Of a DNA stretch of 64,000 bases, positions 19,140 to 59,900 are shown one piece after another. The stretch spans positions 310,001 through 374,000 of the forward strand of contig NC_081334.1 in NCBI RefSeq assembly GCF_022539665.2, in the 5' to 3' direction. Below the pieces are notes generated by a model, which saw only the letters and a list, made by a program, of their open reading frames with translations, did no database searches and was not told the origin of the DNA. Numbering within the stretch: the stretch's first letter is position 1; every line of letters begins with the position of its first letter. The stretch comes from Daphnia carinata. Its lineage: Eukaryota. Made by a program: the position numbers and the translations under genes.

Positions 19140-19180
<41 letters not shown>

Positions 19181-19326: not shown

Positions 19327-19396
19327 GGCTACGTGGCATAACGTTAGAGCTTCTGACTTCGACTCGGGAGTCTTAAGTTCGAATCACGCCGTGACC
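19327..19396 (+). other. tRNA-like module (Arg/TCG-like)
   Basis: Acceptor GGCTACG/CGTGACC; anticodon arm TCTGA-CTTCGAC-TCGGG; B box GTTCGAATC; T stem unpaired. Confidence 0.65.
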
Positions 19397-20705: not shown

Positions 20706-20862
20706 TTTTCGGGATTTTTTAAAATTGTGGAGCACAATTGAGGAGAACTTTACTCAACAAGTGTCGAAAACGTTGTGAAGTCCCTTTGAAATGTCTCGCT
20801 GTTAAATACACGACGGTTGTTATGTGATCGTTTTGATTTTGTTTCGACGAAAATGTACTCTT

Positions 20863-27692: not shown

Positions 27693-27726
27693 TGTGGTTG
27701 AGTTCGAGAAACCGCTGCCACCATAA

Positions 27727-37462: not shown

Positions 37463-38251
37463 CTACACGTGAAAGCAAAACAAATATTCATATTGTTACG
37501 GAATCGTTGATTTTTCAACGATTCAAACGTCTAGCTTTCGTATCTGTGTAGGCAGAGAGACGTTTATCGAGTAGAAGAGTGGAACAGCTAGTTCATTGGC
37601 TGTACGGGGAAAAGATAGGTGTATCGAAGAAGCTCCTAGACTAAATGGTTAAGACGGTATTTCTATTCTTAGTTATTGTGTTGTATTACTTTACCGTACA
37701 GACCGTCCGGGTATTTATGTGGTTGATACGGACGGTCTGGTGAATCATGTTGTGTTGTGTTATTGTACAGATCGTCCGGGTATTTATGTCGTTGGTACGG
37801 ACGATCTGGGTATTGTTTCTTGGTTGTACCTGTTCGTGGTACTGGAAGCCAAGGTTGATAAAGTAGGACGTTGGTAAAGACGTCCGATTAAAAAAGACGC
37901 TGCGACACGCCGATAATTAGCAAAATGTGGCATTCCCTAGAATTCGTTTAACCCTAGAAATGGGGCGTATATCCTTCACGAGGGTATAAAAGCCCACACA
38001 TTTTTTACCCTAAGTTAGTTCTTGTCAGTTCCGTAGTTCTTAAGTCCTACTCAAGTTCTCAAGCGAGTTCTCTTCACGTTCCTGTATTTCAGTTAAGTAA
38101 AGTGTAGTTATTCTTCCTTTCTGTTATGCATTGTATTTTCCTCTTTTAGTTCAATACAATTCATTAACGAAGTAAAGTCCAGTGTGACAATTGGTGGAGA
38201 TGCAGCTCGTTACCCGTTGTTAACGAATTAGTGCTGCTTTAAAGATAGTCG

Positions 38252-39531
38252 ATGCAGAAGAAGAATAGCTCACGTTTACCTAGTTGCCCCCGGGATCCAA
38301 GTAGACGATTGCACCCGCTTCGTGACTTGCCCACCGCGCTGTCTGGTAACGAGACTACAGCAACTAACGAGGCACAAGATTCAGAAATTTCTACGTCAAG
38401 AGAAGATTTAGCGACGTCATCTACAGAGACGACTCGCCAGAGAGGTTTTGAAAATCTCGCAAGACAGTTAGAATCAAGTTCTGACTCTGAAGAAGATTTA
38501 ATAGAACCCACGCACCCGGTTGTTCCCACGATAGGACAACACATTTTTGGATCTCCAAGACAATTGCAAGAAACAGTCATGGCGGCTGTAAGAAAATTCA
38601 TAAGTCCACCTATTTTTCGAGGTAGCCCAACGGAAGACGCTCGTCAATGGTTAGAGCGCTACGAGACTATCTCTACCCACAATGGTTGAGGTGACGCGGA
38701 CAAACATAATAATTTTTGCATGTACTTGGATGATGCTGCAAGAAATTGGTTCTTGTGTGCAAGAGTGCCAAACGACTGACAAGATGTGGCAGCACAGCCG
38801 GCTGCCGGAGAAAACCAAGCAAGACCTGCAGTTCCCGGTCTACGTTCGGTATTTTTGAAAGAATTTCAGCCTAATTCTTATGGTCTTTTCCAAGAAACTA
38901 GACTAAGAAGTAGAACTCAAGGAGTGGATGAACCGACCACCAGATACTACTACGAAATTCTTAATCTTTGCAGACTGGTAGACCCGAACATGTCGGAAAT
39001 CCACCGACTAGAGCACCTTTTTAGAGGTCTTCGACCAGCACTTTTCAGAAAAATCTATCCTCAGAAGCCACAAACGTGTGAAGAATTCTTAGAACTGGCA
39101 AAAGTCTATACGGAGACATCGATGATGTCAGAAGCCAGAGGATGGAAGGACCCCGTGGCAGAACCACAAAAGTCGTTTGAACAAGTTCCAAACCTTTCGG
39201 TGGTCTATCCGGATCAACAAGTAGATCTTTTGTCTCTTGTGAAGTAATTCAAGAAACTTGTGAAAAATTGTTTAAAGAAGGCAGTCAAGAGCAAGCGAAA
39301 CCAAAAGGGCCGTTCAGAACCAAAGGACGCACAACAAGCGGTAAGCCACAGTGCTTTTACTGTAAAAAAGCAGGGCACATTGCCCGAAACTGTTTCAGAA
39401 ACCCTGAATCTGAGCAGTACAGAGGCCCAGCAAAGGACGCTGGGGCAGGCACAACTTCAAAAGAGAATCCATCTGTAAACTCAGTGGTTCAAGAGTTGGT
39501 GATGCCAGAAGAAAACAAAAATGGGTCAGAA
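38252..39531 (+). pseudogene. gag: gag of element 3 with stops/frameshift
   Basis: PPIFRGSPTEDARQWLERYE, RTQGVDEP, CFYCKKAGHIARNC; stops at ~38687, ~38777 and ~39245. Confidence 0.9.
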
Positions 39532-42500
39532 GATTGGCGGAGAAAAAGGCCCAGAAAAAGGCCCAGACGAAAAAGGCCCATACAAAAAAGGCCCACTTTA
39601 TTCCAAATTTTAAAGTTGGCCTTTTTCTCCATTAAACTGGGCCTTTTTCTCCGCTTAATTTCCATGTTCCTAAATCTTTATTGAGTTTCCAAAAAGTATT
39701 TCCCACTTCCTATTCCGTGGAAGTTGGAATATATAAAGGTTGCTGAAACCGTGACGTCCTGAAGGTAGATTTGTCTTGAAAATGTCGTTCTCTACAGAAA
39801 TAACAATAGGCTAGGATCGTCGACATTTTCAAGCCAAATCTAGCTTCAGGACGCCTCCACCTGAGGGCAGTATAAGCAGATGGAAACCATGAGCAATAAC
39901 AAAGTAACTAAATTGTGTTGAATTTGTATAAGATATAAGAATATTATTATATTTGTATAATATAAGAATTAAAATTTTCTTAAAATTTCAATAGACAATC
40001 ATAAGAATTTATTTTACTACATTTGTTTTTTGTACTACCTTTCAAGCCAAATCTAGCTTGAGGACGCCTCCACCTTAGGGCAGTCTAAGCAGAGAAAGTA
40101 TACAAAAAATCGTATGAAGCGTAGTTCAAAAAACAAACGTAGTAAAATAAACCCTTAAGATTGCCTATTGAAATTTTAAAAAAAATTAAGTCTTATATTA
40201 CAAATTCAATAAAATTTAGTTACTTTGTTATTGTTCATGGCCTCCATCTATCTGTGTAGTACGAAAATTCCATTGATAGCTTTGCTGTTATTGTCTGCTA
40301 GCATCGAAGCTAATACCGAAAAAATTCAGTGAAACAAGGGAAAAGGCCGTTATTGCAACAAAATGTTTGGTGCAATAGATTCTACGAAAAACTCCTTTTA
40401 TCATAAAGGACGGCTAGCTGCTTTAAAGAGGTAAGTTGAGTAAGCTCTTCTTCAGAGACTTACGTGCAGCTTGCAATCAAATTGTTGATGTGGAATATAT
40501 TATGCATTCTCATTCACATTCAATGTTTATTTTGTTTCCTAGGAGAACACAAAAAAAAATTGGCGTCAAGGATGTTTTGTTATACGGGATTATTGATTAT
40601 TACTAGGATCCAAGCATAAACCAAAGCCAAACTTAGGACTTGGTTAACCACTCAACAATTTTACTGTGAAAGGATGCAAAATTATGAAAGCGGTATAACA
40701 TTTTAGTAACCAATATGTCTTAGAATATCTTTACTTTGTTTTTGCATGATGCCAGGGGATCACCCAAACCATGCACCTTTCAGATTGGAGGTCTTAAATG
40801 GATGAATGTAATTGAAACGAGTTTTCATATTGAGCCTGAAAAAAAGGTATGTGAAGGGTCAAAACCTAATTTAAAAAATTTTCATACATTGTGGTTTTCT
40901 TGTGCATCATATAACAAAAACTGAGAGCATAAATTTGTTATTGGATTCTAGGGAAGAATGGATGACTGCTGTTGATTATGCTGCTGAACAGCTTCATACA
41001 GATCCTGATTGCAATGATTTGGATATGCCAGCCGTTTCTGAAAAAACACCAGGAACCATGCTTCCAATCCTTAAGAAATGGAAAAACAGCTAACAGCTAA
41101 GCTCTCGCTTTTCACAGGTATGTGTTAATCTTTACATTTAAGTAAGACCTGCCAGTTTATTCCATTGATTTTCAGGAAAAAAGCTGGATTTATCTGATAA
41201 GAAAACAAAAATCAAACTAAACGGAAGTTAAATGAAATGAAGAAAAAATTATAAAGCAAAAAGAAGAAGAGTAGGTCCTGAATTGCCAAACTTGCATGAG
41301 CAACCAAGGTAGCATCTGTGTCACCAACCTCTGTTCTTTCAGAGTTTGTCTAAACAGAAATTTCTGAACCAAGACTATCAAGTACATTGCCAACACCAAT
41401 TTTCAACAGTGAAGGCTGCCCAGTTTTCAGCAAATTTGATTTTGGAGAACTATTTAATCCCTCACCCATTCTGAAAAAGACCACTTTAGATCCATAATTG
41501 GCAACGATTAAAATGAAAAAAAAAAATACTTAAACAAAAAGTGAAAATCTTGGTAGGCCAAGCTGAAGGTGAGAATCCAGAAGCATGGAAGAAAAACAGG
41601 CTTGCAATGGTGCTCTACACATAGCTGAAGGTTTTCAGGTAAACTATCAATTTGACAAACATATTTGTTAGGTGTTCAAAACTTCTAACGTTTCTGTATT
41701 GCAATAGGTAGAAGACTGTGTGGAATTCCTTGGCAAATAAATAAAGAAACGAGGTAAAATCAAATCAGAAAATAAAATAAATTGGGCTGATCGCAACGAA
41801 GAAAAGGAAAAGAGAAAGGAATGACAACAGAAAAAGAGAAAGGAATGACAACAGAAAAAGAGAAAAGCCAACATTAAGAAAAAGAAACTGAAAAAAAAGA
41901 ACATACAGTGATTAAACCAAATCAAAAAAAGGAAAATTTATCGTATGAAATAATGATACCGACTCATAGATGAGCTAAACTCGTGTTCTTTCATGTGCAA
42001 GCCATGGCGCGACAGTCTTTTAGAAAAATACACTGGCATGCCTTTCATGATTTTGGAAAATTTGAAGAAAAAAATCTTAGATTCATTTTTAATTGTTTAG
42101 TGTCTTCACTATAGCAGACTCATAAAAACAGTCTTTCATGGTAGAAAATAATTAAAATTGATTTGTACTTGTTAATAGCTTTGTCAACTTTAGGTGCAAG
42201 GCTTCCTTATTGTTCATTGTAGTATGTGATGTGAATTAGGTAAACAATAGCAGCTGGAATATGTGCATAAGGGGAAAACAAGACACGAAGAACGTAAAAA
42301 ATTATTTATCATTGCTTGAAAACGCGAGTTCTCACCAGAGACGTAGTATATGGTTCTCTCGGACTAAAGGTGAGGTTACTCTTTAACAAAAGACTGCTCT
42401 TTACCAAAAGCCATTACTATTTAAGTTTGACTCATAGACGTTCTTATGCAAATTAAATATTCCAGTTATGCTAGAACTATTTATAGTTTTGCTGAAAAGC

Positions 42501-43382
42501 GCTCCAAGACAACAGTTAGCAGTAAAAGGCCTGGCATATTTATAGCAGTAGGTTATGATTTTAATACATTTATTGGGCTCTTTGTAATCGTGAAAAAATT
42601 GAAAATGTGATAAGGAAATAAATGGTATGAAAATCAATATTGAATTACAATATTCTTTCTTTTTGTCCTTATCGCAAACGATAGTTTAAGCTTGTAGTGT
42701 TCTTCCTCAAAAAATTATTTATCAAATGTTAATAATAATGAACTAGTCTTCGTATTAACATATCTTTGTTCCCAGCAACCACAAAAGCCCCGCGGAACTC
42801 ATTCAGTTTCCGTATTCATAACAAATCAGTGGTCTTAACCTATGGAATAAGTATCGACAAAGAGAAGTTATAATGAAGATGGATTTAGAGTTGGGGGGAA
42901 TGATCAAAGAGGGTGGACAGAACAAGGCTAAGTGCGGAAAACTTATAATTCTTATATTATATTTAAAGAAGCTAAAGTAGTTCAATAAATAAAAATTGTG
43001 AAAAATGAACTTTATTTAACGGGATATTAGCAATAGATAGATACTAACATAATCCGAAATCCGATAGCTACATAATAAATAATCAAAGATTAACTAGCGT
43101 ATATACGCTAACATTGTTTCATATGGGCAAACCTTATAGAAGGTCACGGTTTCAGCAACCTTTATATATTCCAACTTCCACGGAATAGGAAGTGGGAAAT
43201 ACTTTTTGGAAACTCAATAAAGATTTATGAAAATGGAAATTAAGCGGAGAAAAAGGCCCAGTTTAATGGAGAAAAAGGCCCACTTTAAAATTTGGAATAA
43301 AGTGGGCCTTTTTTGTATGGGCCTTTTTCGTCTGGGCCTTTTTCGCGGGCCTTTTTCGTCTGGGCCTTTTTCTCCGACCTCC
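39532..43382. mobile_element. Non-autonomous long-TIR DNA transposon (MULE-like) carrying host gene fragments
   Basis: ~225-bp TIRs with AAAAAGGCCC repeats; TSD GGTCAGAA(GA), 8-10 bp; removal restores the gag-protease frame NGSEDYIL. Confidence 0.88.
40403..40996 (+). pseudogene. Akt: Captured Akt/PKB PH-domain fragment with introns
   Basis: IKDG*LL*R|GEHKKNWR...PLNNFTVKGCKIMK...PKPCTFQIGGLKWMNVIETSFHIE...REEWMTAV aligns by eye with the Akt PH domain. Confidence 0.8.
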
Positions 43383-46300
43383 GGTCAGAAGACTACATTT
43401 TAAATCTAAACCCTGCAAGATTGATTAAAGAAAAAGTGAAGTGCGGTAAGGAAACAGCTACGGCGTTGATTGATACAGGAGCTGCAGTTACAGTGATTTC
43501 TCCTGAATTATTGAAAAAAGCGGGGTTCGTGGAAAAACCCCGGAGTGGGCCGAAAATTCGCCTTGTAAATGGTCATACTCTGTCCCCACAGAGTACAGCT
43601 GACATTGTAGCAACCCACAAGGGTAAAACTATCAAAGGAAACGCGATAGTCATGCCAATGTCGGGTTTTGAACTACTATTAGGAAATGATTCCCTACAAC
43701 AATTTCAAGCTATTCACATTGATTACGAGTCACAGGAATTGTCGTTTACGACAGGAAAGTTGCCACTTGCAGATGCAGAAATCTCGCTTATTCAAACAGA
43801 AGAAGCCAAAGAAAGTAAACTGGTTACAAAAGATCGTCAAGAGATACCAGCATACTCAATCAAGCAAGTTTCAACAACAGTTTCCAGCAAGATGGAAGGT
43901 TCCTGCATTGTGACACCCTCAGAGTCATTGCTAGCGACAAGTAGCCTATCAACTGGTCATGCACTAGTACAAAAAGATTTAGAAAAAATCCCTGTTGCTA
44001 ACTTGTCACCGAAAACGATTTGGCTAGAAAAAGGAGTGACCTTAGGGACGTTAGAAGAACATCCTGAGGCAAAAGAGGTAGAAAACAAGCCAAGCAGTCC
44101 TAGCAATGGACACCTCACTCAAGGAACAAGATTTGAATCAAGATGAAAAGCAATTGTTAGAACACCTAGAAGAAAGAATTGGAACGGGTCTAACAAAGGA
44201 AGAGAAAGCAGAAACGCAAAAAATTCTCGAAGAATTTATCCATTGCTTTGCTCTAAATGAAGATGATTTGGGATACTGTGCAGTAGTCAAACATGACATC
44301 AATACTGGGACAGCTTCCCCAATTCATCAACTCCCTTGCAAAAGTGCTTGGAAGGAAAGAGCTGTAAGGCAAAATCAAGTAGAAGGAATGTTACGTCGAG
44401 GAGTAATTGAACCGTCTGACAGTCCTTGGTCTTCCCCAGTGGTTCTGGTGAAGAAGAAAGACGGAACTTGGCGTTTTTGTGTAGATTATCGCAAGCTCAA
44501 CGCGGTAACAGTTAAAGACTCCTACCCCTTACCACGCATAGCTGATACACTAAGTCGGCTAGAAGGGGCTACATTTTTTCAAGTATGGATTTGCAAGCAG
44601 GATACCACCAAGTTCCAGTGGTTAGCAGTGATAGACCGAAGACAGCCTTCATCACTGCAGATGGATTGTATCAGTTTCGCACTCTTCCGTTTGGTCTAAC
44701 TAATGCCCCAGACACTTTTCAGAGAGCCATGGACATTATTTTGGCTGGACTTCGCTGGACAACATGTCTGATACACCTGGATGACGTCATAATCTACTCA
44801 GCAACATTCCAACAACACTTGGAACGTCTTCGTTGAGTGCTGAGTTGCCTTATGAAAGCTGGTTTGAAACTAAAGTGGTCAAAATGCTCGTTCCTAGAGC
44901 ACACTCTGAAAGTGTTGGGACATCTGATTTCAAAAGACGGTGTAGCACCAGATCCTGAAAAGCTCGAGGCAGTCTCGAACTTCCCATCACCAAGTGAAGG
45001 CCATTCAACAGCAAACAAAGTTAAACGAGTGCAAAGTTTTTTGGGCCTATGTTCTTACTATCGACGTCATATCCAAGGCTTCGCTTCAATTGCTCGCCCA
45101 CTCACGTCACTCACGAAGAAAGAAATTTCGTTTGTGTGGGGAGAAGATCAGGCTAACAGTTTCAATGCCCTGAAAAAAGCGCTCACCTCATCTCCAGTTT
45201 TGGCCCATCCCAACTACGACTTTCCGATGGAAATTTTCCCTGACGCCTGCGAATACGGGATTGGAGGTGTACTGGCCCAGCGCATAGAAGAAGCAGAACG
45301 TCCCATCGCATACGCCAGCCGTTTACTGACTAAATCGGAAGTGAACTATTCGATAACTGAAAAAGAGTGTCTTGCATTAGTGTGGTGTCTCTCCAAGTTC
45401 AGATGTTTTGTGTGGGGCTGCAAAGTGAAAGTCGTCACAGATCATCAAGCTCTATGTTGGTTGATGAGCAAAAAAGACCTAGCAGGTCGTTTAGCACGTT
45501 GGAGCTTATCGCTACAAGAATACGATATCACGATCGTATATCGCAGTGGAAAAACGCACGACAACGCAGATTGTCTTTCAAGAAATCCATTACCAAAAAC
45601 GGAGGAGCAAGAAGACGACCGCTGTGTCGTCATAGGGGCACTAACTGATGACCCAACACGCGCTGAAGAAGAAAACGAGTCCCTAGCAGACAAGCAAAAA
45701 GTCTGCAGTAATTGGAATCAGCTAATTCAAAAAATCCAAAGTGGAAAAGCAAGAGTGAAAAATTTCGTGATGAACAATGGCAAACTCTACAAAGAAACTA
45801 TAAAGAATGGGAAAAGTTATAGAAGATTGTGCGTACCTGTTGACTATCGTGAGAGAATCCTATACGCCTACCATGACGACATCGTTTCCGGTCACCTTGG
45901 GATCAGTCGCACTCTACAAAAAATTTGTGATCGTTACTACTGGCCGAAGATGACACTGGACATAGTTCGTCATGTGCAGAGTTGCGTACACTGTAAGAGC
46001 AGAAAAGGAGTTCCAGACAAACCCCCAGGACTTCTACAATGCATCAAAGTGGAAAGACCGTTTCAAAAAGTAGGAATGGACCTTCTAGGGCCATTCCCGC
46101 TCTCCACAAAAGGAAACAGAATGATTATAGTGGCAGTGGATTACCTAACCAAATGGGTAGAGTTGAAAGCCATGCCCACTGGAAAGGCAGATGACGTGGC
46201 AGAATTCTTCGTTCACCAACTCCTTCTACGCCATGGGGCCCCAGAACAAATCATCACGGATCGGGGAAAGTGCTTCATCGCCGATCTAACTCAAGCTGTC

Positions 46301-47160
46301 GTCAAGAAACTGCTCACCAACCACAAGACGACTTCCAGTTATCACCCCCAGGCAAATGGAGCAGTGGAGAGAATGAACCATATATTGGCAGCAATGCTCT
46401 CAATGTACGTCAGCAGTGATCAACGAGATTGGGATGAAACTCTGCAGTATGTTTGCTTTGTATACAACACAGCTAGACAAGAGTCTACTGGATACTCACC
46501 ATTCTTCCTCCTCTACGGACGTGAACCCAGACTCCCTATTGACTTGGAGTTGGAAGCAGATCCAAATCCATTGCTGGAAGAAGAGGAAGCGACAATGGGA
46601 TATGCAGATCGCCTAATAACTGACCTAGCAGCAGCTAGAGAAAAACTGAAAATTAGAATGCAGCGTGTACAGCAAAAGCAAAAAGAAACTTACGATGCAC
46701 GCCATAGAGAATTGTCATTCAAAGAAGGAGATTTGGTGTTGGTCTACAAGCCTGTGCGTAAAGTGGGAAAATCAGAAAAACTTCTTCATCGTTGGCTAGG
46801 ACCATTCAAAGTGTTGAGACAGACCACACCAGTGAGCTATGAAGTGATATCGGCAACTGGCCGAGGTAAAACAGATATCGTTCACGTAGTGCGGATGAAA
46901 TCATTCCATGAAGCTGTGACGAGCCCTAGCATCACCGAAGAAACTTCAGAGAAAGAAGATGAAAATCAGCAGGAAAAAGAAACACAAGAGATACCTACTT
47001 CAAGTGATCCACAACCTCAGGCTGATCCAGAAGAAACACTAGCGGAGCGGAGCAGTGAAACACCGGACATCGAAGAAAATGATGTGGTCACGCCCACTCC
47101 GGAAGTAATCACGCCAACGTCAACTAGAAGACCCACTCGTAGCAGAAGACCTCCAGCCAG
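43383..47160 (+). pseudogene. pol: pol of element 3 (PR, RT, RNase H, IN)
   Basis: LIDTGA, HLDD, PDAC...TDHQAL, HHCC/DDE and GPF motifs; frameshifts near 44110 and 44580; stop at 44834. Confidence 0.93.
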
Positions 47161-49030
47161 ATATTTAACTCTATTGGTGCCGTTCCTCATTTTCCTGATT
47201 GGGCCGCTGTCAACCAACTCACTGCTCCTGAGAGAAAATTCAATATTCAAACAACAAACTGATGTGGCGTTCAGTGAATCATCATGGACCATCGTAACAG
47301 ACCTTGACTTGGGAGTAGCTGATACGGCAACAGCATACTTAAAGCAGAAAATAACCCAGCAACAAGCAGTGGCAGAGAAGTGGAAGAATACAGGTTCACG
47401 ACCACAACGGATAGCAGCCAGAAGAATCGCTAGCAGAACAGAAACAATCCTAAGGGGAATGGAAAATGTAGCAGACAGATTGACAAACATCAGAAAGGCC
47501 TTGAATACTAACCAAAAAAGTCGTCGAAGTCTCGTCGACGGTGGAGGATCAATCCTGAAATGGCTGTTTGGAGTTTCAACACAAAAAGATTTAGAAGAAT
47601 TAAATAATCAAGTACAACTTGTTGCTCGAGATCAGAGAGAAGTAATTCACATCATCGATAAGCAAGCAACAATAGTAAATGAATCACTTTGGGAGTCCAG
47701 AACAAACGCAAAACTCATCAGAGAGCTGCGAGGCCAATACTCCATGTTAAGCAATGTGACTACAAACCTCATGGACAGAATGGTGAAGATAGAAGAGCTA
47801 GAACTAAATCACTTCGAGTATTACATCCAACTGGATGAAACATTTGAAGCGATGAACCAGATCTTGCAGTGGCTACAACATTTGGCCGATAGTCTCGACG
47901 TCGGTTTCAGTCAATTGGCCAACGGACATTTGGCACCACAAATTGTTTCCCCAGCAAGATTCAACAAAGTTATTAAAATAATAAACGAGAAATTACCAAG
48001 GGGATGGTCTATCTCCAGTGATGAGCTTTGGGTCGCCTATCGAGAATCAACGGTCACCGTGGCGGCTATGGAAAACTCGTTTCGCCTCTTCATAAATGTT
48101 CCCATCTTCGATCACAGCCCGCAGTTCAAGCTTTTCGAAATAATCAACCTTCCAGCAGCTACTGACAACGGAACGCATGGTGTCTTGTTTGGAAATCTCC
48201 CAGCAAACCTTGCTGTATCTGCCGACCTCGAAACGTATCTGGAACTATCCAAAGAAGATGTAAAGGATTGCACTAAGATAGGACGACCACTGTGTAAATT
48301 CCATACCGGCATCAGCAAGAGAACAGCCCGAAAGTCTTGTGCAATAGCTGTCTTTTTAAACGATTCGGCCCGAATCAACACACAATGCAAAAGGAAGTTC
48401 ACAGACTGGCGCGGGCCCGAAGTAGTCTACATGGGATCCAATCAGTGGGTCTATTCAGCAACAAAGAAGCACGAGATTGTGTTCTCATGTCCAGCAGGAG
48501 GAGAGCAGCCACCTTTGAGAACAACAACGTTACCAGCTGTAGGAATGTTTGAAGTACCTCTGGGATGCACCGCTCGAACCGAAGAATGGGTATTTCCAGC
48601 CAGCATGGAAGGAAGCGTAACAGCGCCAAAACTACAAGCAATTGTGCTTCCAACAGTGAAAATCTTTGCACAAGATGTCCAAGAAGCCGAAGGAAAAAAG
48701 CACAATTTCGTCGAGCTTCAACGAGAAAACACTACATCTGTAGACATAATCAGTCAGCTGCTCCATCGCAACGCACAAGCAACGTTGCCATCTGAAATGA
48801 CTGGAGAGCAAATTCATAATTTAATTATGGAAAAACAAAAACAAAAAGAATTTTACCTTACTCGTTATCCTTACGAGTTAGTGGCTTTCAATATTATCTT
48901 GATGTGCGGAATAGTGTTCCTAGTGCTTAAATTCTACATGTTGCATAAGCGTCTCATTGCTCATGAGCAATGTGAGAACGCTCAACCCGGAGACCCCGGG
49001 AGGGATGAAGTGGAGACTGAGAATCTCTAA
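47161..49030 (+). CDS. env: Baculovirus-F/errantivirus-like env, in frame with integrase
   Basis: Hydrophobic YLTLLVPFLIFLIG, furin-like KSRR followed by fusion-peptide-like SLVDGGGSILKWLFGVS, heptad repeats, Cys-rich region and C-terminal TM. Confidence 0.88.
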
Positions 49031-49119
49031 AAGAAAATTGTTAGTGATAAAAAAGAAAAAACAACTGCTGTTTGAAAAGTGAAAAAAGTGTATTATTTTG
49101 AAAGCAAGAAAATCTACAA

Positions 49120-49650
49120 TCATTCTTCACGATTATTGTTTAAATCTAAAAAGTCGTCGTCGTGTTCCTCAAACGCAGCGTCCAAAACAGCAAGCCAAAC
49201 GAGCCGAGCTTCTACCCGTGCTTGTGCTTCAGCTTGGGTGATCTCCCGGTAGAAGTCCGAACGGCGAGGAGTGGTGTGGTAAATGTCCTGATTGGACTCA
49301 AACCACCAAAGGAGACGCGCGTGGAGATGACAAAAGTAATCCCGGTATTTCGCATACCCAGGATACGTGCTAAAAAGAGGAGAGAAACGTTAGCATGAAC
49401 GAACAAACCAATCAAAGAAGAATACTTACCTGTAGTAATAGTCATTTATCCACGGGGCGTCAACGATTAAAGGAGAGCCCAAAAGGACATTGTCTTCAAA
49501 CACTTTAGTGAAGATGTCCCGAAACTCCGCACGGTCATACAGATTTAGCCGAACGAAAGGGCTCCTAAAACTGGAAAACCTATCCGCGAAACACACGAGA
49601 GCACATGCATAAGCGGGAAGATTGGCAAGAACCGAATCGAGCGTGAACAT
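49120..49650 (-). CDS. Antisense two-exon accessory gene of element 3 (156 aa, unknown function)
   Basis: Exon 1 49650-49430, 60-nt intron GTAAGT...CTAAC...TTTTTAG (49429-49370), exon 2 49369-49120; the spliced frame is open. CAAAAATG start, Inr TCAGTT and TATA-like CATAAGAA upstream. Confidence 0.8.
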
Positions 49651-49834
49651 TTTTGGGCTGAGGTGAACAACGAACTGAAGACGGAAGATAGCAGTTGAAT
49701 TTCTTATGCATCTTAACGTCGTAGTTTACCTTTTTTCACACCTAGGTGTGAATTGCTAATTATAGTCGTCTTTATTACGTTTGTATTGCCTCCGTAGTCC
49801 TAGAAAATTCCTTTTCGATAGAAGCACATTTCAT

Positions 49835-50046
49835 TGTATGCTTGACTTCTATTATAGTTGTTCCTCTACCTCGCTAGAGCGACCGCGCTTTATCGTATGC
49901 TTGACTTCTACTATAGCTGTCCCTTCACCTCTGTAAAGCAACCACGCGCTTTTGTACGATTGACTTTTACTGTAGTTGTCCCTTCACCGTACTAAAATCG
50001 ACCTCGCTCTATCGTATGCTTTTTCATTACTATAGTTACTCACTCT
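49835..50046. repeat. ~59-bp tandem repeat, ~3.5 diverged copies
   Basis: GTATGCTTGACTTCTA(C/T)TATAG(T/C)TGT(T/C)CC... recurs at ~49836, 49895, 49953 and 50014. Confidence 0.8.
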
Positions 50047-50167
50047 CTATTAGCCTTAGGGTTATTTTGAAATTTACAGGTATCTTTCCCCATTATTTGT
50101 TTATGCTCTTGATTTCCTTTTTTGATTGTTAGTACAGTCGGGTCGCCTGTCTTGAAGAAGGGGGACC

Positions 50168-50555
50168 TGTCGCGAGGGGAAAATCGCGTTGTGGTTGCCA
50201 TTTCTGGAAAGGGGCGTCAGCCAACGTTTAATTGTTTACAATACAGCTTCCCTTGAAAAAAGACGCTGCGACACGCCGATAATTAGCAAAAAGTGGCATT
50301 CCCTAGAATTCGTTTAACCCTAGAAATGGGGCGTATATCCTTCACGAGGGTATAAAAGCCCACACATTTTTTACCCTAAGTTAGTTCTTCTCAGTTCTGT
50401 AGTTCTTAAGTCCTACTCAAGTTCTCAAGCGAGTTCTCTTTACGTTCCTGTATTTCAGTTAAGTAAAGTGTAGTTATTCTTCCTTTCTGTTATGCATTGT
50501 ATTTTCCCCTTTTAGTTCAATACAATTCATTAACGAAGTAAAGTCCAGTGTGACA
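50168..50555 (+). repeat. 3' LTR of element 3
   Basis: TGT...ACA; 50256-50555 matches 37890-38189 with ~5 substitutions; TATAAAA box inside. Confidence 0.93.
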
Positions 50556-53555
50556 ATATTTTCCATCTCTGTTTCGCTTAATGATGCAGACGAGGACCAA
50601 GACCAAGAGCAACAATGCAAGGGCCAGCATCATGCCGATAAACCATACGGTAGAGGCGACGGCGGATGATCCTTGGATATAAGGTCCATCTGAACATTTG
50701 GAAATAAATTGACATTAAAGACAAATGTTTATGTAAATTTTGTCTCAACTTTCTGGCAACTCACCGGCGTACATCTCGACTTCTTCGGGGTCGTTTTCGG
50801 TAAAGTAATCGCAATCAACGACGACGGCGCCAATTTCGTACAGTTGATTGGGTTCCAGGTCGCGTAAAATGAGGAAATTTTCGTCAAACTCATCTTCGCT
50901 TTTAATGTAGATAGTCTTGCCCTTGCGTCTGAACTGGACAAAAAAGTGAGATCCCGGTTGGCCATCGACTTTCGTATGCCAGACGACTTTGATGGCCGGC
51001 ATACCGTTGTCCAATGTAACCTGGTTCCATGTGAATTGAGGCTGATCGGGTGGATTGCCATTGCGAGTGCTCCTTTCAATGTAATAACTCTTAAAGCGCA
51101 AAAAAAGCAGTAGAACATTAGCCAACTCCATTTTCTCTTAAAAAATAGTTTTTCAAAAAATGAACTTACTCGTTACCCTCGCTAGCGATCGTCATTGCTT
51201 TCATGTGGAGGCGGTATATCGTGTTGGGTTCGAGATCTGCCAGTTTAGCCCGCGTCTGCAGTCGGGTCTCGGATTGGCGGTTCCCTTTTGATCTGGGGTC
51301 CAATTTTCGTGCCTTCTACTTTCTCGTAGAAAATCTCTAGAAAGCAGAGGAACCAAGAGGAGCAGCTTCAAAATAGTCCACTGGTCCAGGCCCTAGAACA
51401 CATGAATTTTTTTTGTTTACATTCGTATTAGAATCGTATTAGAATCGTATTAGTATTCGCATTAGAAAAAAAAAGCTTGTTAGTATTTCTTAAAAAATGA
51501 CCCTTAGGGAGCGATTAGTTTTTACCTTGCACAGAGTCCGTGTTGTATGGATTCCACGAAAGGATGGCGCTTCATTCGTCAATAATTTGGTTCAACGTGA
51601 AATTGGACGGTGCCTCTAACGGCCGTCTTCTCCAGAGTACCCGTAACTTCTTGAACTGCCACGTTGGCCTCACCAACCTAATTGAACGCCACTACTGGAA
51701 ATACAAAAGAGAGACAAAGAGTTTGAACGACATCCAATTTTTCAATGAATAAGTAAATGAATTTTACCTTTGATACGATAGCGTTTGAAAGTGGGTTGAT
51801 TCGGTATGAGGATGGATGACTGTCTCCAGCCGGAAATCATTTCGATGTTTCAGTCTTCTCCAGGTATGTCTCGTCGCCAGAAAACGCGATAGTGAAAGTT
51901 GCTTCTGTTGTGTTCGATCTCGGGCACCGGGTTCCACGTGACAACCAAATTAGTGGGCTAAGTGCCACGGCCCTCTACATTCGGGATTCTTATTCGGCAC
52001 GTCTGGAGGCGTCGTGCACATGGACGAGTGATCCGATGGAAGCGAAGGGCCGATCTTGTTGCGCGCAATCACGCGGAATGTGTAATTAGACCAAGGGCTC
52101 ATCTCGACTTTGAACCGCGTTTCCGTGGCCGGCACGTTCTCGAAAGACACCTCCCAGCTGTCGGGTGTGAAGCTCGTGTTGAATTGGATCGTGTAGGTCA
52201 AGATTGGAGCTCGATTGTCGCCCGAAGGAGTCCATTCTATAGCTGCGTCGCGGTTATTGCACTGGATGCCAACCATTCTGGGCCGGTTGGGAACATCTGT
52301 CGAAGCAAAATTGCGCATCGTGATGAGCATTAAAAAAACCGCATCGAGGGCAAAGCGAAACTGGAAAAATTATTACCTTGAACTTGATGAGAGTGGCCTT
52401 GGCCTCTGCCATGTCCAGGATGGTTTTTACACGGCATGTGTAGTCGCCCGTGTCCAACTCTGTCGTCTTCATGATGATCAGCGACGAGTTCTGCAACTGG
52501 ACGAAGCGTGGCTCTTGCTCAAAATTGATCAACTGGTCCGCGTGGAGCCACTCGATCGTCATGTTCAGCGACGAGTCGGCTACGCGTTACATCGGAAAGT
52601 GGCCGTCTGCCCGGCAGCCACTTCATAGTCTTCGGGTCCGTCTCTGATGACGGTGCGCTCTTAATAAATAAATGCCGAGAACTTTAGACGTAAGGTTTTT
52701 CGTTTCCCCTCACTGGAAGAAAATCATGAAATGGGCAGCTAATTAACCTTTCACGATCAGAGTTCCATTGGCATTGGCTGATCCGAATGTGTTGGTTCCG
52801 TGACACGAATATACACCAGCGTCTGTAAAGGTCATATCCCTAAAGATGTCTCTACAGCGTCTGTAAAGTCACATCCCCAGAAAAGAATATGAAAAATAAA
52901 TTCTATTAATAAAGTATACGATGCAGAGTGAGAAAAGCGTGCAGATTAATACGCAACACGCCCGAAATATTGGACCATCTTTTAAACAATAGCCCAGCTG
53001 TTTAGAGCTGAAGCGGAAAATGCGGTTGGAAAAGAAGAGGGGAAGGTGGACGTCAAAAGCAGCTGGCCTCACAATACAATTTGAATATCGTTTTCTTCCG
53101 TTCAAAAAAAGCGCCACGATAGGACGTAAGCTTATTTTGAAAAAAACAAAACAAAAAGACGGTATACCTAATTTCCAGATCACCGCTGTCCATAACGCGA
53201 TAGCGGCCGCCTGTCAATTCCAACCCGTCGCGGATCCATTTGACGAGCGGTTTGGGTGAGCCAAAGGCTTTGCACGTCAGATTGACGGCCGATCCGTCGA
53301 CGGTTGCCGTGTCGTCCGGTGAGTCTTCGATGTCGGGCGCCAATGCCAACACGTTCAAGTAGACATCCTCGTAGACGTAGCCGATTCTGTTGGTCGCGTT
53401 GCATCCGTAGTTGCCCGTGTCACCCTTATGCAGCCGCCTGATGACGATGCGATTGGGGAAAACTTTGCGGCTTGGGTGGACGGCCGTCTCTTCGATTGGT
53501 TTGCTATTGTGGATCCATTTGATTTCGGTGGCAGGCGAGCCGCCACCGCCGGCCT
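50556..53555 (-). pseudogene. Nrg: Neuroglian/L1CAM-like internal fragment (Ig, FN3, TM exons)
   Basis: DTGNYGCNATNRIGYVYEDVYLNV, GDNRAPIL..TIQFNTSFTP, MSPWSNYTFRVIARNKIGPS, WFIGMMLALALLLLVLVLVCIIKRNRDGKY. Frameshifts; cut by LTRs at both ends. Confidence 0.92.
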
Positions 53556-53976
53556 CAAGAGAAAATGAATCATTATGTAAAGCATTCTTTTAGCAATGGA
53601 AAGAATGACTTTACATTATTTAAGACAAATTGTAGTTTAGAAAATTAAACTCGGAAGGCGTTACCACAATGTCGAATATATTTGATTCTAATAGGCCAGA
53701 AGGATAATAAAAGAATACACAATTATACGATATAAATGGGAAACGGAAATATAAAAGTGGAGTTATGCGAGTTTAGTCTTACCGTCACCGCTGTGGCGAA
53801 AATAGAATAAGATGTCGAACGTTGTAAGAAAAAGAGTAGAGAAAAAAACAGGACTTGTCGGTCGCACAAGAAGCGATGAGAAGCACTCCCAATAATTATT
53901 CAACAAGAACAAATTGAACTCGCTGGATTTGAAGAATTAGAACAACACTTGTAGCACTAAGGGTGAGAACTAGAAC

Positions 53977-56900
53977 TTGGGTAGCCGGTGAAATAGGACT
54001 GAAACGAAATAGGACTGGAGAAATTAAAACTTTTAGAACAGTCCTATTTCTCCTCGGCATCAGTCCTATTCCTCCTTAGAAATAGTCCTATTTATTTTAT
54101 TTTGTTCCCATAGGAACGATATGTCTCCAATCCGGTAGGCAACATATTGCGTAAGAGCGTCAGCTTATATCCATTTCCCTTTGTAAAAAGCCGATGGTGT
54201 TAACTCATAACTTAAATGGTTCACCAAACATTTATCTTTTATCCTATTTTAATTTAAATTGCAGGGGACCATTAAATATGTTATATCTAATATAGTTCAT
54301 TTAATAAAATACTACAACGGCCACACCAGAAATATTTATTAAATTTTTCCTACTTTTTAGTGCATAAATAACTTTTCCAGTTGCACTCATGTGGTACTTG
54401 CTCATACAATTATCAGCAACGAATAACAAGCAAGTCTTACCATATCGGTAGCGCTCTAACCTGTGACACGAGTAGTCCTATGTTTGATTCTGCGTGGTTA
54501 CATTTCTTCTGAGGTTTTTAATAACATTTGCGGTTAAGTTAACTATGAATAGTAGAAGAATGTTAATGAATCTTCGCATGTATGAAAGCTAGTTCCTTAC
54601 CAGGAGCAAGAAGAACTGTTGAGATACAAGAGAATGGATGAGAGAGGAGATGGTAGATAACGGTAGATGGGCGAAAAATAAATGATTTGTAATTTAACAT
54701 TTTAACAATTTCTCAACTTCTTTACCAGGAAGAGGATTCTACCACCGAAGTGGATGGCCGAGCATGACATAGCATTACTCATCAAGTGACGTATGCCAAA
54801 GGATTAAGTTAATATTTATATTGACTTTGAAATAAAATTGATGAAGAAGATTTATGGGTGCTAAAGCCGAGGAAGTTGAAGATGGTTGCCGGTGGCGAAT
54901 AGAAAGAAGAGATTTGCAGAAGTAAAAGATCACCGGCTTTAGCAGATTAAATCTTATAGGTGCTTAAGACATAGAGGCCGAAGATTTATGCCGGCGGCGA
55001 ATCGAAAGCAAAGATTTAGGAAGGTCAGAGATCTTCGGATTAAGCAGCTTCAGACTTATGGTTGCACCACATTTAATGACTACTCCATACGACCTTGTAT
55101 CCCGGAAGCTGATGACGCTTGCCTGCGGCGAATTGAAAGAAAAGCTTTACGTAAATCCAGGTAATCTTCACTCACCGCAACAGCAAGAAGCGCTTCCTTC
55201 CTATTTGCCGAGAGGTGTAATTTCGTTTGGCTCCTCGCCTTTTTGGCAGACTATATATATGGATACAATAATACCAACAACTTTAATAGTTCGTCTTAGA
55301 CTTCGATCTAGCACTTACCATTACCATGTCTTCAGCTCGCTTTCAATGTTCGGGATGCAAATCCAGTGTTATCGGCCGGAAGCAATTCTGCGTTTGCCTA
55401 GGCTGCCATGTTCCTGTCCATCGTCTTTGTTGTGGTGTTACCTTCCATAAGGGTGTTTCGCCTTCATGGAAGGAGTTCAGCAACTTTTATCGGTGCGCCA
55501 TGTGTTCTAGTGGTAGTGCAGTCCTAGGTTCCACCGAAGATGTAGCGGATGTTGATGGTGCAGTAGCTGGGGGATCAAAAGGCGATGTAGCTGTTGTTGC
55601 TGTTGCTGGTTCTGAAGGTGGTCGTCCTAAGAGATTGCTGAAGCCAAGGAGCATTTTCGACCCTTCCGACGTAGGCAAGAAAAAGCCTCTAGTTCCAGCT
55701 TCTCCACGTCGTCCCTCATCACCACGACAACGATCAACTCCTCGCACATCTCCTCAGACTAATTCTCCGCGTCGTCCAGCAACTCCGTCTTCTCCACCCT
55801 CCCCACTTTCTCCGTTGACAATGTCACCATTGGTGAGTCTTGTTGTGTCTCCTTTTCTTTTTATGTTGTCTCCTCTTCTTAGGTCAACTCCTCCAGTTCC
55901 ACCACCACGACGAGGACGCAGGGCCCAACCTCAGCTACTAGACCAGTCGCCAGAAGCTGCAATCCCAAGGAGTTCATATGCAAGCGATGGAAGAAGAGAG
56001 GAAACATTTGCCGAACCCAGCGAATCGACAATGGAGGTATATATTTCTTCTTTATCGCAACATGTCTTAGTATTTTATTAACTAAACGTTTTTGTTAGCA
56101 ATCATCGCATGAGGAACCGACGGAGGCATCCTACAAGATTCATGACGAAGGAACGAACAAGGGACTCCATAAGCTTACTGATGGATTAGGTAATAATTCG
56201 AATATAATTGCTAATTGAATAAGACTAAAAGAGGAATTCCTTTCTTACTATAGGATTTTGCTTCAGCAAAAAAGCCATCAGTAAGAGCACATATACATGG
56301 CGCTGTACCTCCCGACCTTCTGGAAACCCATGTAAAGCGATCGTGAAACAAAAGAAAACCCCCCTTTTGGATTGTTTGCTTAATTACAATAATGCTGACT
56401 TCACCCTTGTTCCCCACGATCAAGAGAACACCCACAATCACCCACCAGACATTGGAAACCAGAAAAGGGTAAGTGTTTTTAGAAAAAAGTAATTTGAGTT
56501 TCTAAATGTGTAACTTGCAATATTTATACATAGGTTGACATCTTTAGAGAATCGAAGGAAGCCTGCGTCGATCAACAGTTTACGGACCCCAGGGAGATCT
56601 TATTTACCGAACTGAAGAAACGCAAGTCCATAGAGGGAAGACACATGCCGGATGCTGATTTGGCCACTCGTCGTTTACGGTACATTAAATAATAAATTAT
56701 ATCAATGATTATGGTTAACGATTAAACTTTATATTCCAGTTACAAGAGAGCGAAGGTTATGCCCGCTAATCCCAGGAAAGATGACCCTTTCTTTCCTGTA
56801 GTGGAGAATTTCTTCCCACCCGACTGGTATCAGGGCGCCATCTTTGCTGGAACGGCCCAAGACCGTGCCCGGCACCTTCTGTTCTTCACCCCTACCATGA

Positions 56901-59900
56901 AGCGCCAACTAGAAGACTGCAAGACATGGTTTATGGACGCAACATTCTATTTTGTTGATGAACCCATCAAACAGGTGCGTTTAATTATCTTGATAATGTA
57001 ACCAAATTTAATTTTAACCTATTTCTCTCTATATAGCTCTTCACGATCAATGGGTTCATCAAAAACGACAAGAATGAAATAAAGCAAGTACCCTTATTGT
57101 TTTGTTGCATGACCAGGAGAAGAGCAGCCGACTATAGCGCTGTTTTCGAGAAGATAAAGGTATAGATACTATCTCATTTACAAATAGTTTGTTATGTAAA
57201 AATAATAAATTTTATATTGTTATAGGATATAATCCCCCTTCCTAGAGTCCAGCGGATCGTGACCGATTTCGAACGTGCTATATTTACGGCTGTCCGCAGG
57301 CACTTTGTGGATTGCCAGCACTTTGGCTGCAATTTCCACTGGTGCCAAGCCGTTCAGAAAAAGGTCCGGGATCTTCACCTTGCCACCCTCTACAACAACA
57401 AGGGACCGAATCCAGTGCGAGACTTTGTGTTTCGCCTGCTATGTCTTGCATATCTTCCAGGTAAATAGCACACAAATGTTATATTTAATTGTCATGAATA
57501 ACATTTGTGAACTTTTTGTAGCTGGTAAAATTCCTGGTGTGTTTGACGCGTTGAAGAGCTCAGCACCTAGCGAACTTCCAGCACTCATGGATTATATGGA
57601 GCGGAATTGGATTCGGGGCAAGTTCTGGACTCCTGAGAACTGGTCATGCTTCAACATCTTAACGCGTACCAATAAGGACTGTGAAGGAATGCACCACCAA
57701 TGGAACAAGGTAATTTAAATTTGAACAATAATATGTAATGAATAATTAATAACAAAAATGTTTGTAGTTGGCAGGTAGATCTAATTTAAAATTCTACAAG
57801 ATGACAATGGTATTGCGGAAACTGGCCGAAGAAGTTTCCCTTACTAGCACGCTACTCTGCCATGAAAAAATAAGGGCTCACTGGAAGAAAGAGACCCGAC
57901 TTAAGAATTCCGTACTGTTCCAGCTTTGGGTGCGCTATCAAAATAATGAGGTATGTTTTCTAAATTTACAAGAAAAAAAATTTCCCTATAACTAATCATT
58001 GTTTTTGCAGCTATCTACAATGGATCTACTAGAAGAAATAGTTTTAGAGCTTAGATCATCTTTTCCCGCTATTGTTTCCTCACATGCCCTTAATGTTGCT
58101 ATAAATAATATTAATGATGAACTAGATATGTCTATAATTGAATAACATTTGTTTGTTTGTAACATGTATTTTATTTGACGAATGTTTACAAATTAAAATA
58201 CTTTATAAATAAACTTACATAATCTCAATTGACTTTTTTATTTTAATGTAATATGTAATGTAATACATCATGCTTGAATTATTACGATAATACTTGTTGT
58301 GCAAGCGACGACTAATGTGCCGATTGATGGTTTTGGTTCGTGGCCACAATTCCCGAGAAGATGATTGTTCTAAAAAAAATAAAATTGCAATAATTATACC
58401 AATGTACTCCATATAACTATAAATGAATTTACCTTGCATGTTTAAATCCTTCCAACCATTTACCAAACGAGTGATAAGAGAAAGCAAAAGCTTTCAATTG
58501 TCCGGAAGAATGGTTTAAGAATTCGTTGATCAGAGCTCCCTATGAAAAAAGAAAAATAAAATTAATGAAAAAGGCAAAAAAAGAACTTAAGAAATAAAAA
58601 AACATTAAACCGGCCTGAGTAAACTGTAAAAAAATTGCCACGCAAAACCTACAAAGAAGAAAAAGAAGAAAAAAAATTTAGTAAAACATAAGCAAAGTTC
58701 AGTTGAAACACAATAAAAAAAAGTAAAAGCATTAAGTGACGTGAAGTATAGTTAGGTAGCATACCCATAATTTGTAGATGTAATTAAATAACTATCGTAA
58801 ATATTTCGAATCCTAGTCGGCCTACGTCCCGACTAAGATATCTATTTAACTGAAGGTCCACTGACCTGGGTCAGACAATTGGTTTCACGACGACATTGTG
58901 AAACCAATCCCGATACCTGTGCCCATTGAGGTGACAAGTCTCAATGCCCTTACACTTAAATTAACAATGCCAGCACTCGAACCGTTGCCTATCCGTTCCG
59001 AACCTGATACAATGTGTCCGGGTACGGCCCAGCACTAGTGAAATAGAAAATGTACTTACGGTTTGCGACTCCTTAGAAACAATCCGCAGCTGGGTAGGAA
59101 CTGGGCAGGCCGCTTGACACGAACAACTGATGATTAGCACATTCACAGCACATTCACGGCACATTCGAAGCACCGTCGACAACCTACACCACGAAGATCT
59201 AAATACTGACTGGCTGAAATGCTGAAACCGCATGTGAAAATTGGGAAGTCAGAACTACCATTATTTGCCATTTCAGTAGTATTACCCTAAACACCAGTAA
59301 TTGTTTTCTCCCAAAAATTCTTTCATAGAATAATTATTAAAAACCTCATAAGAAATGTAACCACTCAGAATCGAACATAGGACTACAAGTGTCACAGGTT
59401 AGAGCGCTACCGATATGGTAAATCTTGCTTGTTATTCGTTGCTGATAATTGTATGAGCAAGTACAACATGTGTGCAACTGGAAAAGTTATTTATGCACTA
59501 AAGTAAGAAAAATTTAATAAATATTTCTGGTGTGGCCGTTGTAGTATTTTATTAAATGAACTATATTAGATATAACATATTTAATGGTCCCCTGCAATTT
59601 AAATTAAAATAGGATAAAAGATAAATGTTTGGTGAACCATTTAAGTTATGAGTTAACACCATCGGCTTTTTACAAAGGGAAATGGATATAAGCCGACGCT
59701 CTTACGCAATATGTTGCCTACCGGATTGGAGGCATGTCGTTCCTACGGGAACAAAATAAAATAAATAGGACTATTTCTAAGGAGAAATAGGACTGATGCC
59801 GAGGAGAAATAGGACTGGCCTAAAAGTTTTAAAAAGGCAGTCCTATTTCTCCCAGTCCTTTTTCTCCGGTAGAAATAGGGCTGGAATTTTTCAGTCCTAT

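What the first reader, a model, noticed from the sequence alone, without database searches (positions are those of the whole stretch)
49120..49710. Intact spliced antisense gene inside an LTR retrotransposon
Between env and the 3' LTR, on the opposite strand, lie a TATA-like box, Inr TCAGTT, CAAAAATG, exon 1, a 60-nt intron with canonical donor, CTAAC branch point and pyrimidine tract, and exon 2. They join into MFTLDSVLANLP...WINDYYYS-TYPGYAKYRDYFCHLHARLLWWFE...DLNNNREE (156 aa). An intron can survive retrotransposition when antisense to the genomic RNA. The gene is undamaged while gag/pol have several lesions. It is conceptually like HTLV-1 HBZ; I recognise no homologue.
Basis: partly seen in the sequence, partly recalled or inferred. 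Interest (0 to 1): 0.85.

Follow-up and report, generated by a model that had tools for sequence, protein, structure and literature searches.

The report
Backward spliced gene in water-flea retroelement
A retrovirus-like jumping gene of water fleas carries, on its opposite strand behind the envelope gene, a small predicted two-exon gene from a conserved, unnamed protein family that likely acts as an accessory factor for the element, probably by regulating it or blunting host silencing.

Summary
The anatomy is real: minus-strand ATG 49650, 221-nt exon 1, 60-nt GT-AG intron (49429-49370), exon 2 to stop 49120, 156 codons; 0 of 1000 shuffles reach that length. It lies between an F-type env and the 3' LTR of a Daphnia Ty3/gypsy errantivirus. 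Two distant loci keep the intron at the same codon and phase, with synonymous sites saturated or nearly so. In D. magna 4 of 10 closest homologues sit within two locus tags of an env homologue (expected 0.03); 0 of 25 distant ones do. No Pfam, PDB or fold match; predicted small, acidic, helical, non-membrane protein. No RNA data could be examined, so splicing and function are unproven. 'Intact while gag/pol decay' is not evidence (chance about 0.7). Antisense extra genes are known in plant and fungal LTR elements and HTLV; this is a new protein family in an animal env-bearing element.

The parts
37890..38189 (+). 5' LTR remnant (its first ~88 nt are missing relative to the 3' LTR)
   Evidence: 297/302 identity to 50256-50557; 50150-50255 has no second copy in the window
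38192..38203 (+). Primer-binding site, tRNA-Ala type
   Evidence: reverse complement contains GCTGCATCTCCA, the PBS listed for Dmag_errantivirus_1 and _3 in PMC13524379 supplementary file 1
38249..39542 (+). gag, broken (two in-frame stops, one frame change, cut by an insertion)
   Evidence: Retrotrans_gag weak, zf-CCHC; tblastn with D. magna homologues
39543..43355 (.). 3.8-kb insertion with ~218-nt terminal inverted repeats, at the gag/pol border
   Evidence: inverted repeat I2, 96%; boundaries
43356..44836 (+). protease and RT, broken (two frame changes, one stop)
   Evidence: gag-asp_proteas; tblastn frames
44837..49030 (+). Open 1397-codon frame: end of RT, RNase H, integrase, then F-type env in frame (signal-peptide-like stretch near 47153, basic cleavage-like site near 47516)
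   Evidence: RT_RNaseH, rve, Baculo_F E=6.6e-22
49120..49369 (-). Antisense gene exon 2 (coding, with stop); holds the family motif YPGYA-x-YRD...ARLLWW-x-ES-x-x-D
   Evidence: 55-63% identity to D. magna proteins
49370..49429 (-). Predicted 60-nt phase-2 GT-AG intron
   Evidence: same position and phase in L001 (57 nt) and L002 (112 nt); same junction in RefSeq model XP_059350954.1
49430..49650 (-). Antisense gene exon 1 (coding), ATG at 49650
   Evidence: 38% identity over 74 aa to D. magna P0003 from Met1, E=2e-10
49673..49678 (-). Initiator-like TCAGTT (predicted start region)
   Evidence: also upstream of exon 1 in L002 (575), absent in L001; weak alone
49701..49708 (-). Weak TATA-like CATAAGAA about 30 nt upstream of the Inr
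   Evidence: position only, conservation not shown
49739..49748 (.). Palindrome CACCTAGGTG upstream of the gene
   Evidence: the same 10-mer upstream in L001 (31), none in L002
49834..49988 (+). 59-nt tandem repeat, 2.6 copies
   Evidence: TRF, D20
50154..50165 (+). Polypurine tract
   Evidence: sequence directly before the TG of the LTR
50168..50555 (+). 3' LTR (TG...CA, 388 nt)
50556..53600 (-). Host neuroglian-like exons (Ig, fn3, TM); a coding exon ends abruptly at the LTR
   Evidence: Pfam I-set/fn3; P0001 tblastn to 50556

Best explanation
The element carries, on the strand opposite gag-pol-env, a conserved predicted two-exon gene for a small acidic protein, predicted to be helical, that likely works as an accessory factor helping the element stay expressed against host silencing. 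Shown: the two-exon frame, its place between env and the 3' LTR, a multi-copy Daphnia protein family, one intron position kept across distant members, and neighbouring env genes for the closest subfamily. Inferred: it is transcribed from the integrated DNA by an internal promoter; the intron survives because the packaged genomic RNA is the other strand and shows the spliceosome no such intron; the protein acts through a conserved aromatic surface that binds a partner protein, since it is net acidic and has no membrane segment. An mRNA of this polarity would have the same sense as the host's antisense piRNAs and so would escape slicing by them (extrapolated from Drosophila), which would suit a counter-silencing or activating role. 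My odds: real coding gene 0.93; carried by this element family 0.85; positive regulator or counter-silencing role about 0.45.
For: Anatomy and chance test. Full-length D. magna homologues align from Met1 across the junction. 34 representatives at E<=0.001; subfamily representatives 29-65% identical; clusters of 12 and 17 near-identical members spread over many D. magna contigs, and one D. carinata protein at 4 loci, as expected of a mobile gene. Same phase-2 intron in L001 and L002 with lengths 57 and 112 nt; unspliced-style records end at DYYFR/DFYY or start with Phe-rich text just before the exon-2 motif. pS 0.65-1.0 versus pN 0.09-0.47 in four blocks. Locus tags beside env homologues: OUZ56_026262/026261, APZ42_032112/032111, OUZ56_010368/010369, OUZ56_005736/005738; 4 of 35 tags, expected 0.09, 0 of 20000 draws (tags). 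Published Daphnia F-type errantiviruses leave 1,009-1,431 nt between env and LTR (7 of 14 rows usable; window 1,138). Two AlphaFold2 models of D. magna homologues agree in helix layout, pLDDT 77.6 and 81.6. pI 4.5-5.1 in 8 of 9 homologues, maximum 19-residue hydropathy 1.56. piRNA polarity: PMC13269885 passages.
Against: No RNA evidence was examined. 0 of 25 locus tags of the distant subfamilies lie within 3 tags of an env hit, and 6 of 10 of the closest do not; tags give no strand; the uniform null ignores clustering of transposons. L002 shows no env in 1.45 kb downstream, has inverted repeats on both sides and an LTR-like stretch downstream in the same direction as the gene. The env-LTR gap is similar in HSV-type elements (392-1,353 nt, 5 of 10 rows), so it is unspecific. 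L001/L002 were picked by protein similarity, which inflates the dN/dS signal, and one opposite-strand frame shows a similar ratio. Nothing ties the protein to a target or pathway; sense piRNAs and chromatin silencing could still hit this transcript.
Confidence: 0.55

Rival explanations
1. Self-restraint, HBZ-like: the element-borne protein and/or its antisense RNA dampens LTR transcription or seeds antisense small RNAs, limiting harm to the host.
For: Same anatomy evidence. HBZ, APH-2, -3 and -4 are spliced antisense products that lower LTR activity (PMC10186651 passages); PMC7264820 proposes dsRNA-based regulation. The antisense stop lies only 90 nt from the env stop, so the transcripts converge.
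Against: Conservation follows the protein frame, not the RNA; no Rfam match; no bZIP or basic DNA-binding region; the mRNA would overlap mainly the element's 3' non-coding region.
Confidence: 0.2
2. Structural or trafficking helper: the protein assists Env processing, particle assembly or export of genomic RNA (as CERV does for Cer1).
For: Found next to env in every linked case; animal LTR elements do encode such helpers (PMC10309623 abstract; 10.1101/2025.03.14.642691 passages).
Against: No membrane segment, net acidic; a separate antisense promoter would uncouple it from gag/env output; the cited helpers are sense-strand.
Confidence: 0.12
3. A captured host or other-transposon gene that rides several kinds of repeat; its presence in this element is incidental, and at this locus any transcript is read-through from the neuroglian-like gene.
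For: Intron and Inr look like a host gene; L002 context differs; 0 of 25 distant tags near env; the host gene lies on the same strand and RefSeq fuses it to these exons.
Against: No single-copy or non-Daphnia homologue among 13 named of 17 looked-up representatives; own ATG conserved from Met1; the closest env homologue and the closest protein homologue are neighbours in two D. magna assemblies.
Confidence: 0.1
4. Chance ORF or annotation artefact without function.
For: No domain or fold match; no RNA seen; intactness expected by chance.
Against: 0 of 1000 shuffles; family with conserved intron and synonymous saturation; consistent fold prediction.
Confidence: 0.03

Closest known systems
Antisense additional ORFs between pol and 3' LTR (aORF-3R): maize Grande gene23, rice RIRE2, Retand TRP28 ORFs, PvRetro13, Botrytis Boty brtn (PMC7264820 main text; PMC11963269 and PMC8365987 passages)
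   Same: Antisense gene in the 3' internal region, conserved in a family, function unknown; Grande gene23 has its own internal promoter.
   Different: Animal host; element also has a true F-type env; conserved spliceosomal intron; no TRP28 or other Pfam match; acidic rather than predicted DNA-binding. Whether brtn has introns I only recall and did not check.
Daphnia ENV_F errantiviruses with tRNA-Ala PBS (Chary and Hayashi, PMC13524379; abstract, passages, section 15, supplementary file 1 rows)
   Same: Ty3/gypsy gag-pol plus F-type env, same PBS 12-mer as Dmag_errantivirus_1 and _3, similar LTR length and env-LTR gap.
   Different: The paper's main text has 0 occurrences of 'antisense' or 'small ORF'; this copy is damaged and was not matched to a listed element.
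HTLV-1 HBZ and HTLV-2/3/4 APH proteins (PMC10186651 passages)
   Same: Spliced antisense protein gene in the 3' part of an env-bearing retroelement.
   Different: HBZ starts in the 3' LTR and is a bZIP factor; here the predicted start is ~490 nt inside and no bZIP is found; no sequence relation.
Accessory proteins of animal LTR retrotransposons: Cer1 CERV (PMC10309623 abstract), MDG1-group sORF1/sORF2 (10.1101/2025.03.14.642691 passages), bdelloid ORF3s (PMC5408684 passages)
   Same: Small extra proteins encoded by invertebrate Ty3/gypsy elements.
   Different: Those are sense-strand products (sORFs upstream of gag; sORF2 is a membrane protein); no similarity was detected or expected here.

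Membership tests
Env-F Ty3/gypsy errantivirus (the element) | gag, then PR-RT-RH-IN order | tested here: met
   Pfam; tblastn
Env-F Ty3/gypsy errantivirus (the element) | F-type env downstream of pol | tested here: met
   PF12259 E=6.6e-22, residues 804-1379
Env-F Ty3/gypsy errantivirus (the element) | LTRs, tRNA PBS, polypurine tract | tested here: met
   5' LTR truncated, so the target-site duplication could not be read
Env-F Ty3/gypsy errantivirus (the element) | Placement in the published POL tree | not tested
   no tree built
Antisense aORF-3R of LTR retrotransposons | ORF antisense to gag-pol between pol and 3' LTR | tested here: met
Antisense aORF-3R of LTR retrotransposons | Present in most copies of the family | tested here: inconclusive
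   no genome held; 4 of 10 closest and 0 of 25 distant tags near env
Antisense aORF-3R of LTR retrotransposons | Conserved at protein level | tested here: met
   (three loci only, chosen by protein similarity)
Antisense aORF-3R of LTR retrotransposons | Transcribed from its own antisense promoter | not testable with these tools
   no RNA run could be laid on the locus
Retand TRP28 antisense ORFs | TRP28 (PF04195) domain | tested here: not met
   no such Pfam hit in either exon or in 27 aligned homologues
HBZ/APH antisense proteins | Spliced antisense transcript in the 3' proviral region | tested here: inconclusive
   predicted from DNA and conservation; no reads
HBZ/APH antisense proteins | Start sites within the 3' LTR | tested here: inconclusive
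   Inr-like motif lies ~490 nt inside the LTR border; true start unmapped
HBZ/APH antisense proteins | bZIP domain (HBZ) | tested here: not met
   no Pfam bZIP hit; net acidic
HBZ/APH antisense proteins | Nuclear protein that lowers LTR activity | not testable with these tools
   needs bench work
MDG1 sORF2-like fusogen | Sense ORF with a transmembrane helix and polybasic tail | tested here: not met
   antisense; maximum KD19 1.56; net acidic
Any known fold | Significant structural match | tested here: inconclusive
   best VIA Z 3.4 (rmsd 5.1, 78 aligned) and 6.3 (rmsd 2.5, 53 aligned, C-terminal helices only)

The most novel reading that the evidence does not exclude
Daphnia errantiviruses are 'complex' retroelements: the whole lineage keeps an intron-containing antisense gene for a protein of a new fold that is made while the LTR is silenced, escapes antisense piRNAs by its polarity, and disarms host silencing or switches the element on - an invertebrate counterpart, of independent origin, to retroviral antisense regulators.
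Probability: 0.3. Interest if true: 0.85.

Novelty: new variant of a known kind. Interest (0 to 1): 0.63.

Why it matters
Antisense extra genes of LTR elements have been an open question in plants and fungi (function undetermined per PMC7264820), and none turned up for Daphnia or for errantiviruses in my ten literature searches. Here is a compact, multi-copy, conserved example in a crustacean with RNAi and public transcriptomes, so expression, location, partners and effect on silencing are directly testable. It also shows that dozens of 'uncharacterized' Daphnia gene models, and one 'neuroglian-like' RefSeq model, are likely retroelement genes.

Tried and rejected
No genome held, so copies could not be mapped. 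No RNA holder listed; this blank is not evidence, and no reads could be laid. No Pfam family for either exon or for 27 homologues beyond two single weak hits, E 0.064 and 0.25; none in PHROGs for 6 homologues; no PDB sequence match at E<=10; no Foldseek match at E<=0.001 in PDB or BFVD; VIA wide searches gave only low or generic helical matches, the conserved core was not folded alone. ESM Atlas: 0.90-score fungal clusters without common family for P0003, nothing for P0038; treated as noise. No Rfam match in 49000-50600. Viral contigs: no relative in 4 scans. L003 is a 17-residue match in bacterial intergenic DNA, dropped as chance. P0029 (505-aa repeat) is a likely false hit among the 34. No similarity to a small ORF of the window's other LTR element. 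No significant DNA match of LTR or promoter regions between window and L001/L002 (best 26 of 500 shuffles reach the score). The bacterial promoter scan is irrelevant and unused. The 'intact versus decayed' argument was rejected. Literature searches listed no paper on this gene; Repbase and Dfam could not be searched, most subscription papers are missing, and figures of PMC13524379 and the supplements of the bioRxiv preprint were not seen.

Full report
Observation. The sum is 156 codons. In 1000 dinucleotide shuffles of the env-to-LTR region none gave a strict-consensus spliced ORF this long (maximum 113). The promoter motifs are weak alone: TCAGTY occurs 80 times in the window against 71 expected.

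The element. Pfam finds protease, RNase H, integrase and, in frame behind integrase, a baculovirus-F-type env (E 6.6e-22). A polypurine tract precedes a 388-nt 3' LTR (50168-50555); the 5' LTR lacks its first ~88 nt and is 297/302 identical to the rest. The PBS equals the tRNA-Ala-type 12-mer listed for two D. magna F-type errantiviruses in supplementary file 1 of PMC13524379. Exon 2 is 100% identical to part of a D. carinata RefSeq protein, so the window is likely D. carinata. gag has two stops, a frame change and a 3.8-kb insertion with inverted ends; protease-RT has two frame changes and a stop; the following 4,194 nt are open. With about 6 point lesions in 6,966 nt, a 471-nt gene escapes with probability about 0.67, so its intactness says nothing about selection on this copy.

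The family. A search with exon 2 gave 3 proteins among 194 candidates: the chimeric RefSeq model XP_059350954.1, which joins neuroglian-like exons to the end of exon 1 and then uses the same junction, and two D. magna proteins of 154 and 173 aa that match exon 1 from Met1 (38% over 74 aa, E 2e-10) and exon 2 (63%). An exhaustive search with one of these gave 34 representatives at E<=0.001. I looked up 17 of the 34; 13 carry an organism name, all Daphnia; 4 are unnamed, one of them (P0029) probably a false hit. Clusters hold 12 and 17 near-identical members on many D. magna contigs, and one D. carinata protein stands at 4 loci. Subfamily representatives are 29-65% identical and share YPGYA-x-YRD and ARLLWW-x-ES-x-x-D just after the junction.

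The intron is old. Two metagenome loci (2 of 191 pattern matches) each show a phase-2 GT-AG intron at the same codon, 57 nt in L001 and 112 nt in L002. Records that look unspliced end at DYYFR or DFYY, or open with Phe-rich text right before the exon-2 motif, as a translated pyrimidine tract would. Between window, L001 and L002, pS is 0.65-1.0 and pN 0.09-0.47 in four blocks of 10-42 codons. Caveats: three loci, picked by protein similarity; one opposite-strand frame gives a similar ratio; L002 has a frameshift and no clear ATG.

Does it travel with the element? Without a genome I used locus tags. The best env homologue in one D. magna assembly is OUZ56_026261, next to OUZ56_026262, a close homologue of the small protein; in another assembly APZ42_032111 (RT and env) is next to APZ42_032112; two more pairs are 010368/010369 and 005736/005738. 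That is 4 of 35 tags within two places of 36 env tags, against 0.09 expected (0 of 20000 uniform draws); 4 of 10 in the closest subfamily, 0 of 25 in the others. Tags give no strand, the null ignores clustering of transposons, gene totals were assumed from the highest tags seen, and both env searches scored only about 8,000 candidates, so distant envs may be missing. Published Daphnia F-type elements leave 1,009-1,431 nt between env and LTR (7 of 14 rows; 3 without LTR and 4 with inconsistent offsets dropped), like the window's 1,138, but HSV-type rows overlap that range (5 of 10 rows). Against a uniform picture, L002 has no env downstream, is flanked by inverted repeats, and has an LTR-like stretch downstream in the gene's own direction.

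The protein. No Pfam, PHROG or PDB sequence match. AlphaFold2 models of two D. magna homologues have the same helix layout with pLDDT 77.6 and 81.6 and no meaningful structural neighbour; this does not prove a new fold. Eight of nine full-length homologues have pI 4.5-5.1, both window exons are acidic, aromatic content is 16-19%, and no 19-residue window exceeds hydropathy 1.56: a soluble protein that more likely binds a protein than nucleic acid or membrane (inference).

Mechanism. Shown: frame, position, family, intron conservation, linkage of the nearest subfamily. Inferred: an internal antisense promoter; survival of the intron because the copied RNA is the opposite strand; a benefit to the element, since the gene has been kept through deep divergence of multi-copy families. 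In Drosophila, Aub-bound antisense piRNAs slice sense transposon RNA while Ago3 slices antisense RNA (PMC13269885 passages); an antisense mRNA with its own promoter would escape the first arm and could be made when the LTR is quiet. I therefore put a counter-silencing or activating role first (about 0.45 given the gene), ahead of HBZ-like restraint, a particle or export helper, and incidental capture. No result here identifies a target.

Comparison and novelty. Antisense ORFs between pol and the 3' LTR are known in Grande, RIRE2, Retand, PvRetro13 and Boty, with unknown function and, for Grande, an own promoter (PMC7264820, parts 1-2 of 3 read; PMC11963269 and PMC8365987 passages). HBZ and APH are spliced antisense products starting in the 3' LTR (PMC10186651 passages). 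Animal Ty3/gypsy accessory proteins CERV, sORF1/2 and rotifer ORF3s are sense-strand (PMC10309623 abstract; bioRxiv 2025.03.14.642691 passages; PMC5408684 passages). The errantivirus survey that covers Daphnia has no occurrence of 'antisense' in its main text, nor has the D. pulex LTR survey (PMC2996953 passages); a Drosophila errantivirus review uses the word only for piRNAs in the passages shown (PMC3383448). Ten searches listed no description of this gene; Repbase and Dfam were out of reach. Earlier AI notes report similar arrangements in other genomes; they are unchecked leads and only suggest that the kind recurs. Verdict: a real and conserved gene, a new protein family, a new variant of a known kind; interest 0.63, held down by the lack of RNA and functional evidence.

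Noticed in passing
window 15716-28023 (minus strand): A second LTR element with repeats 100% identical over 300 nt, long gag- and pol-like frames, and two small sense ORFs (20271-20753, 18443-18931) between pol and an env-like ORF (16477-17526); the two are related (33% over 51 aa, E 6e-6) and have no Pfam hit. Possible further accessory genes.
   Followed up: partly
window 60458-63723: Decayed relative (74-86%) of that second element.
   Followed up: no
window 50556-53600 and RefSeq XP_059350954.1: The element cuts a neuroglian-like coding exon just after its membrane segment; the RefSeq model fuses it to the antisense exons; no downstream neuroglian motif was found in the window with recalled motifs.
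   Followed up: partly
window 38249-49030: All lesions cluster in gag, protease and RT while 4,194 nt of RH-IN-env are open, and the 5' LTR is truncated; recombination, assembly error or retention of env are possible.
   Followed up: no
window 49735-49752 and L001:31-40: Palindrome CACCTAGGTG (part of an 18-nt perfect palindrome in the window) upstream of the gene in two distant members, absent in L002; could be a dimeric factor site or an RNA hairpin.
   Followed up: partly
L002:241-279, 1871-1914, 2116-2452: Homologue flanked by inverted repeats, with a purine tract and an LTR-like stretch downstream in the same direction as the gene; no env.
   Followed up: partly
window 39543-43355; 54024-59832: Two insertions with long terminal inverted repeats; the first has no frame of its own over 100 codons.
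   Followed up: no
window 2839-3279: ORF with a DnaJ domain (E 1.3e-17) next to repeats.
   Followed up: no
window 5202-14667 and 10703-12055: A third, fragmented LTR element with pol frames, containing two minus-strand frames that resemble a hAT-type transposase by recall (no Pfam hit for the one scanned).
   Followed up: no
P0026/P0028/L002 subfamily: These members end in a basic tail (RRPRPY-like) whereas most others end acidic, so subfamilies may differ in location or role.
   Followed up: no
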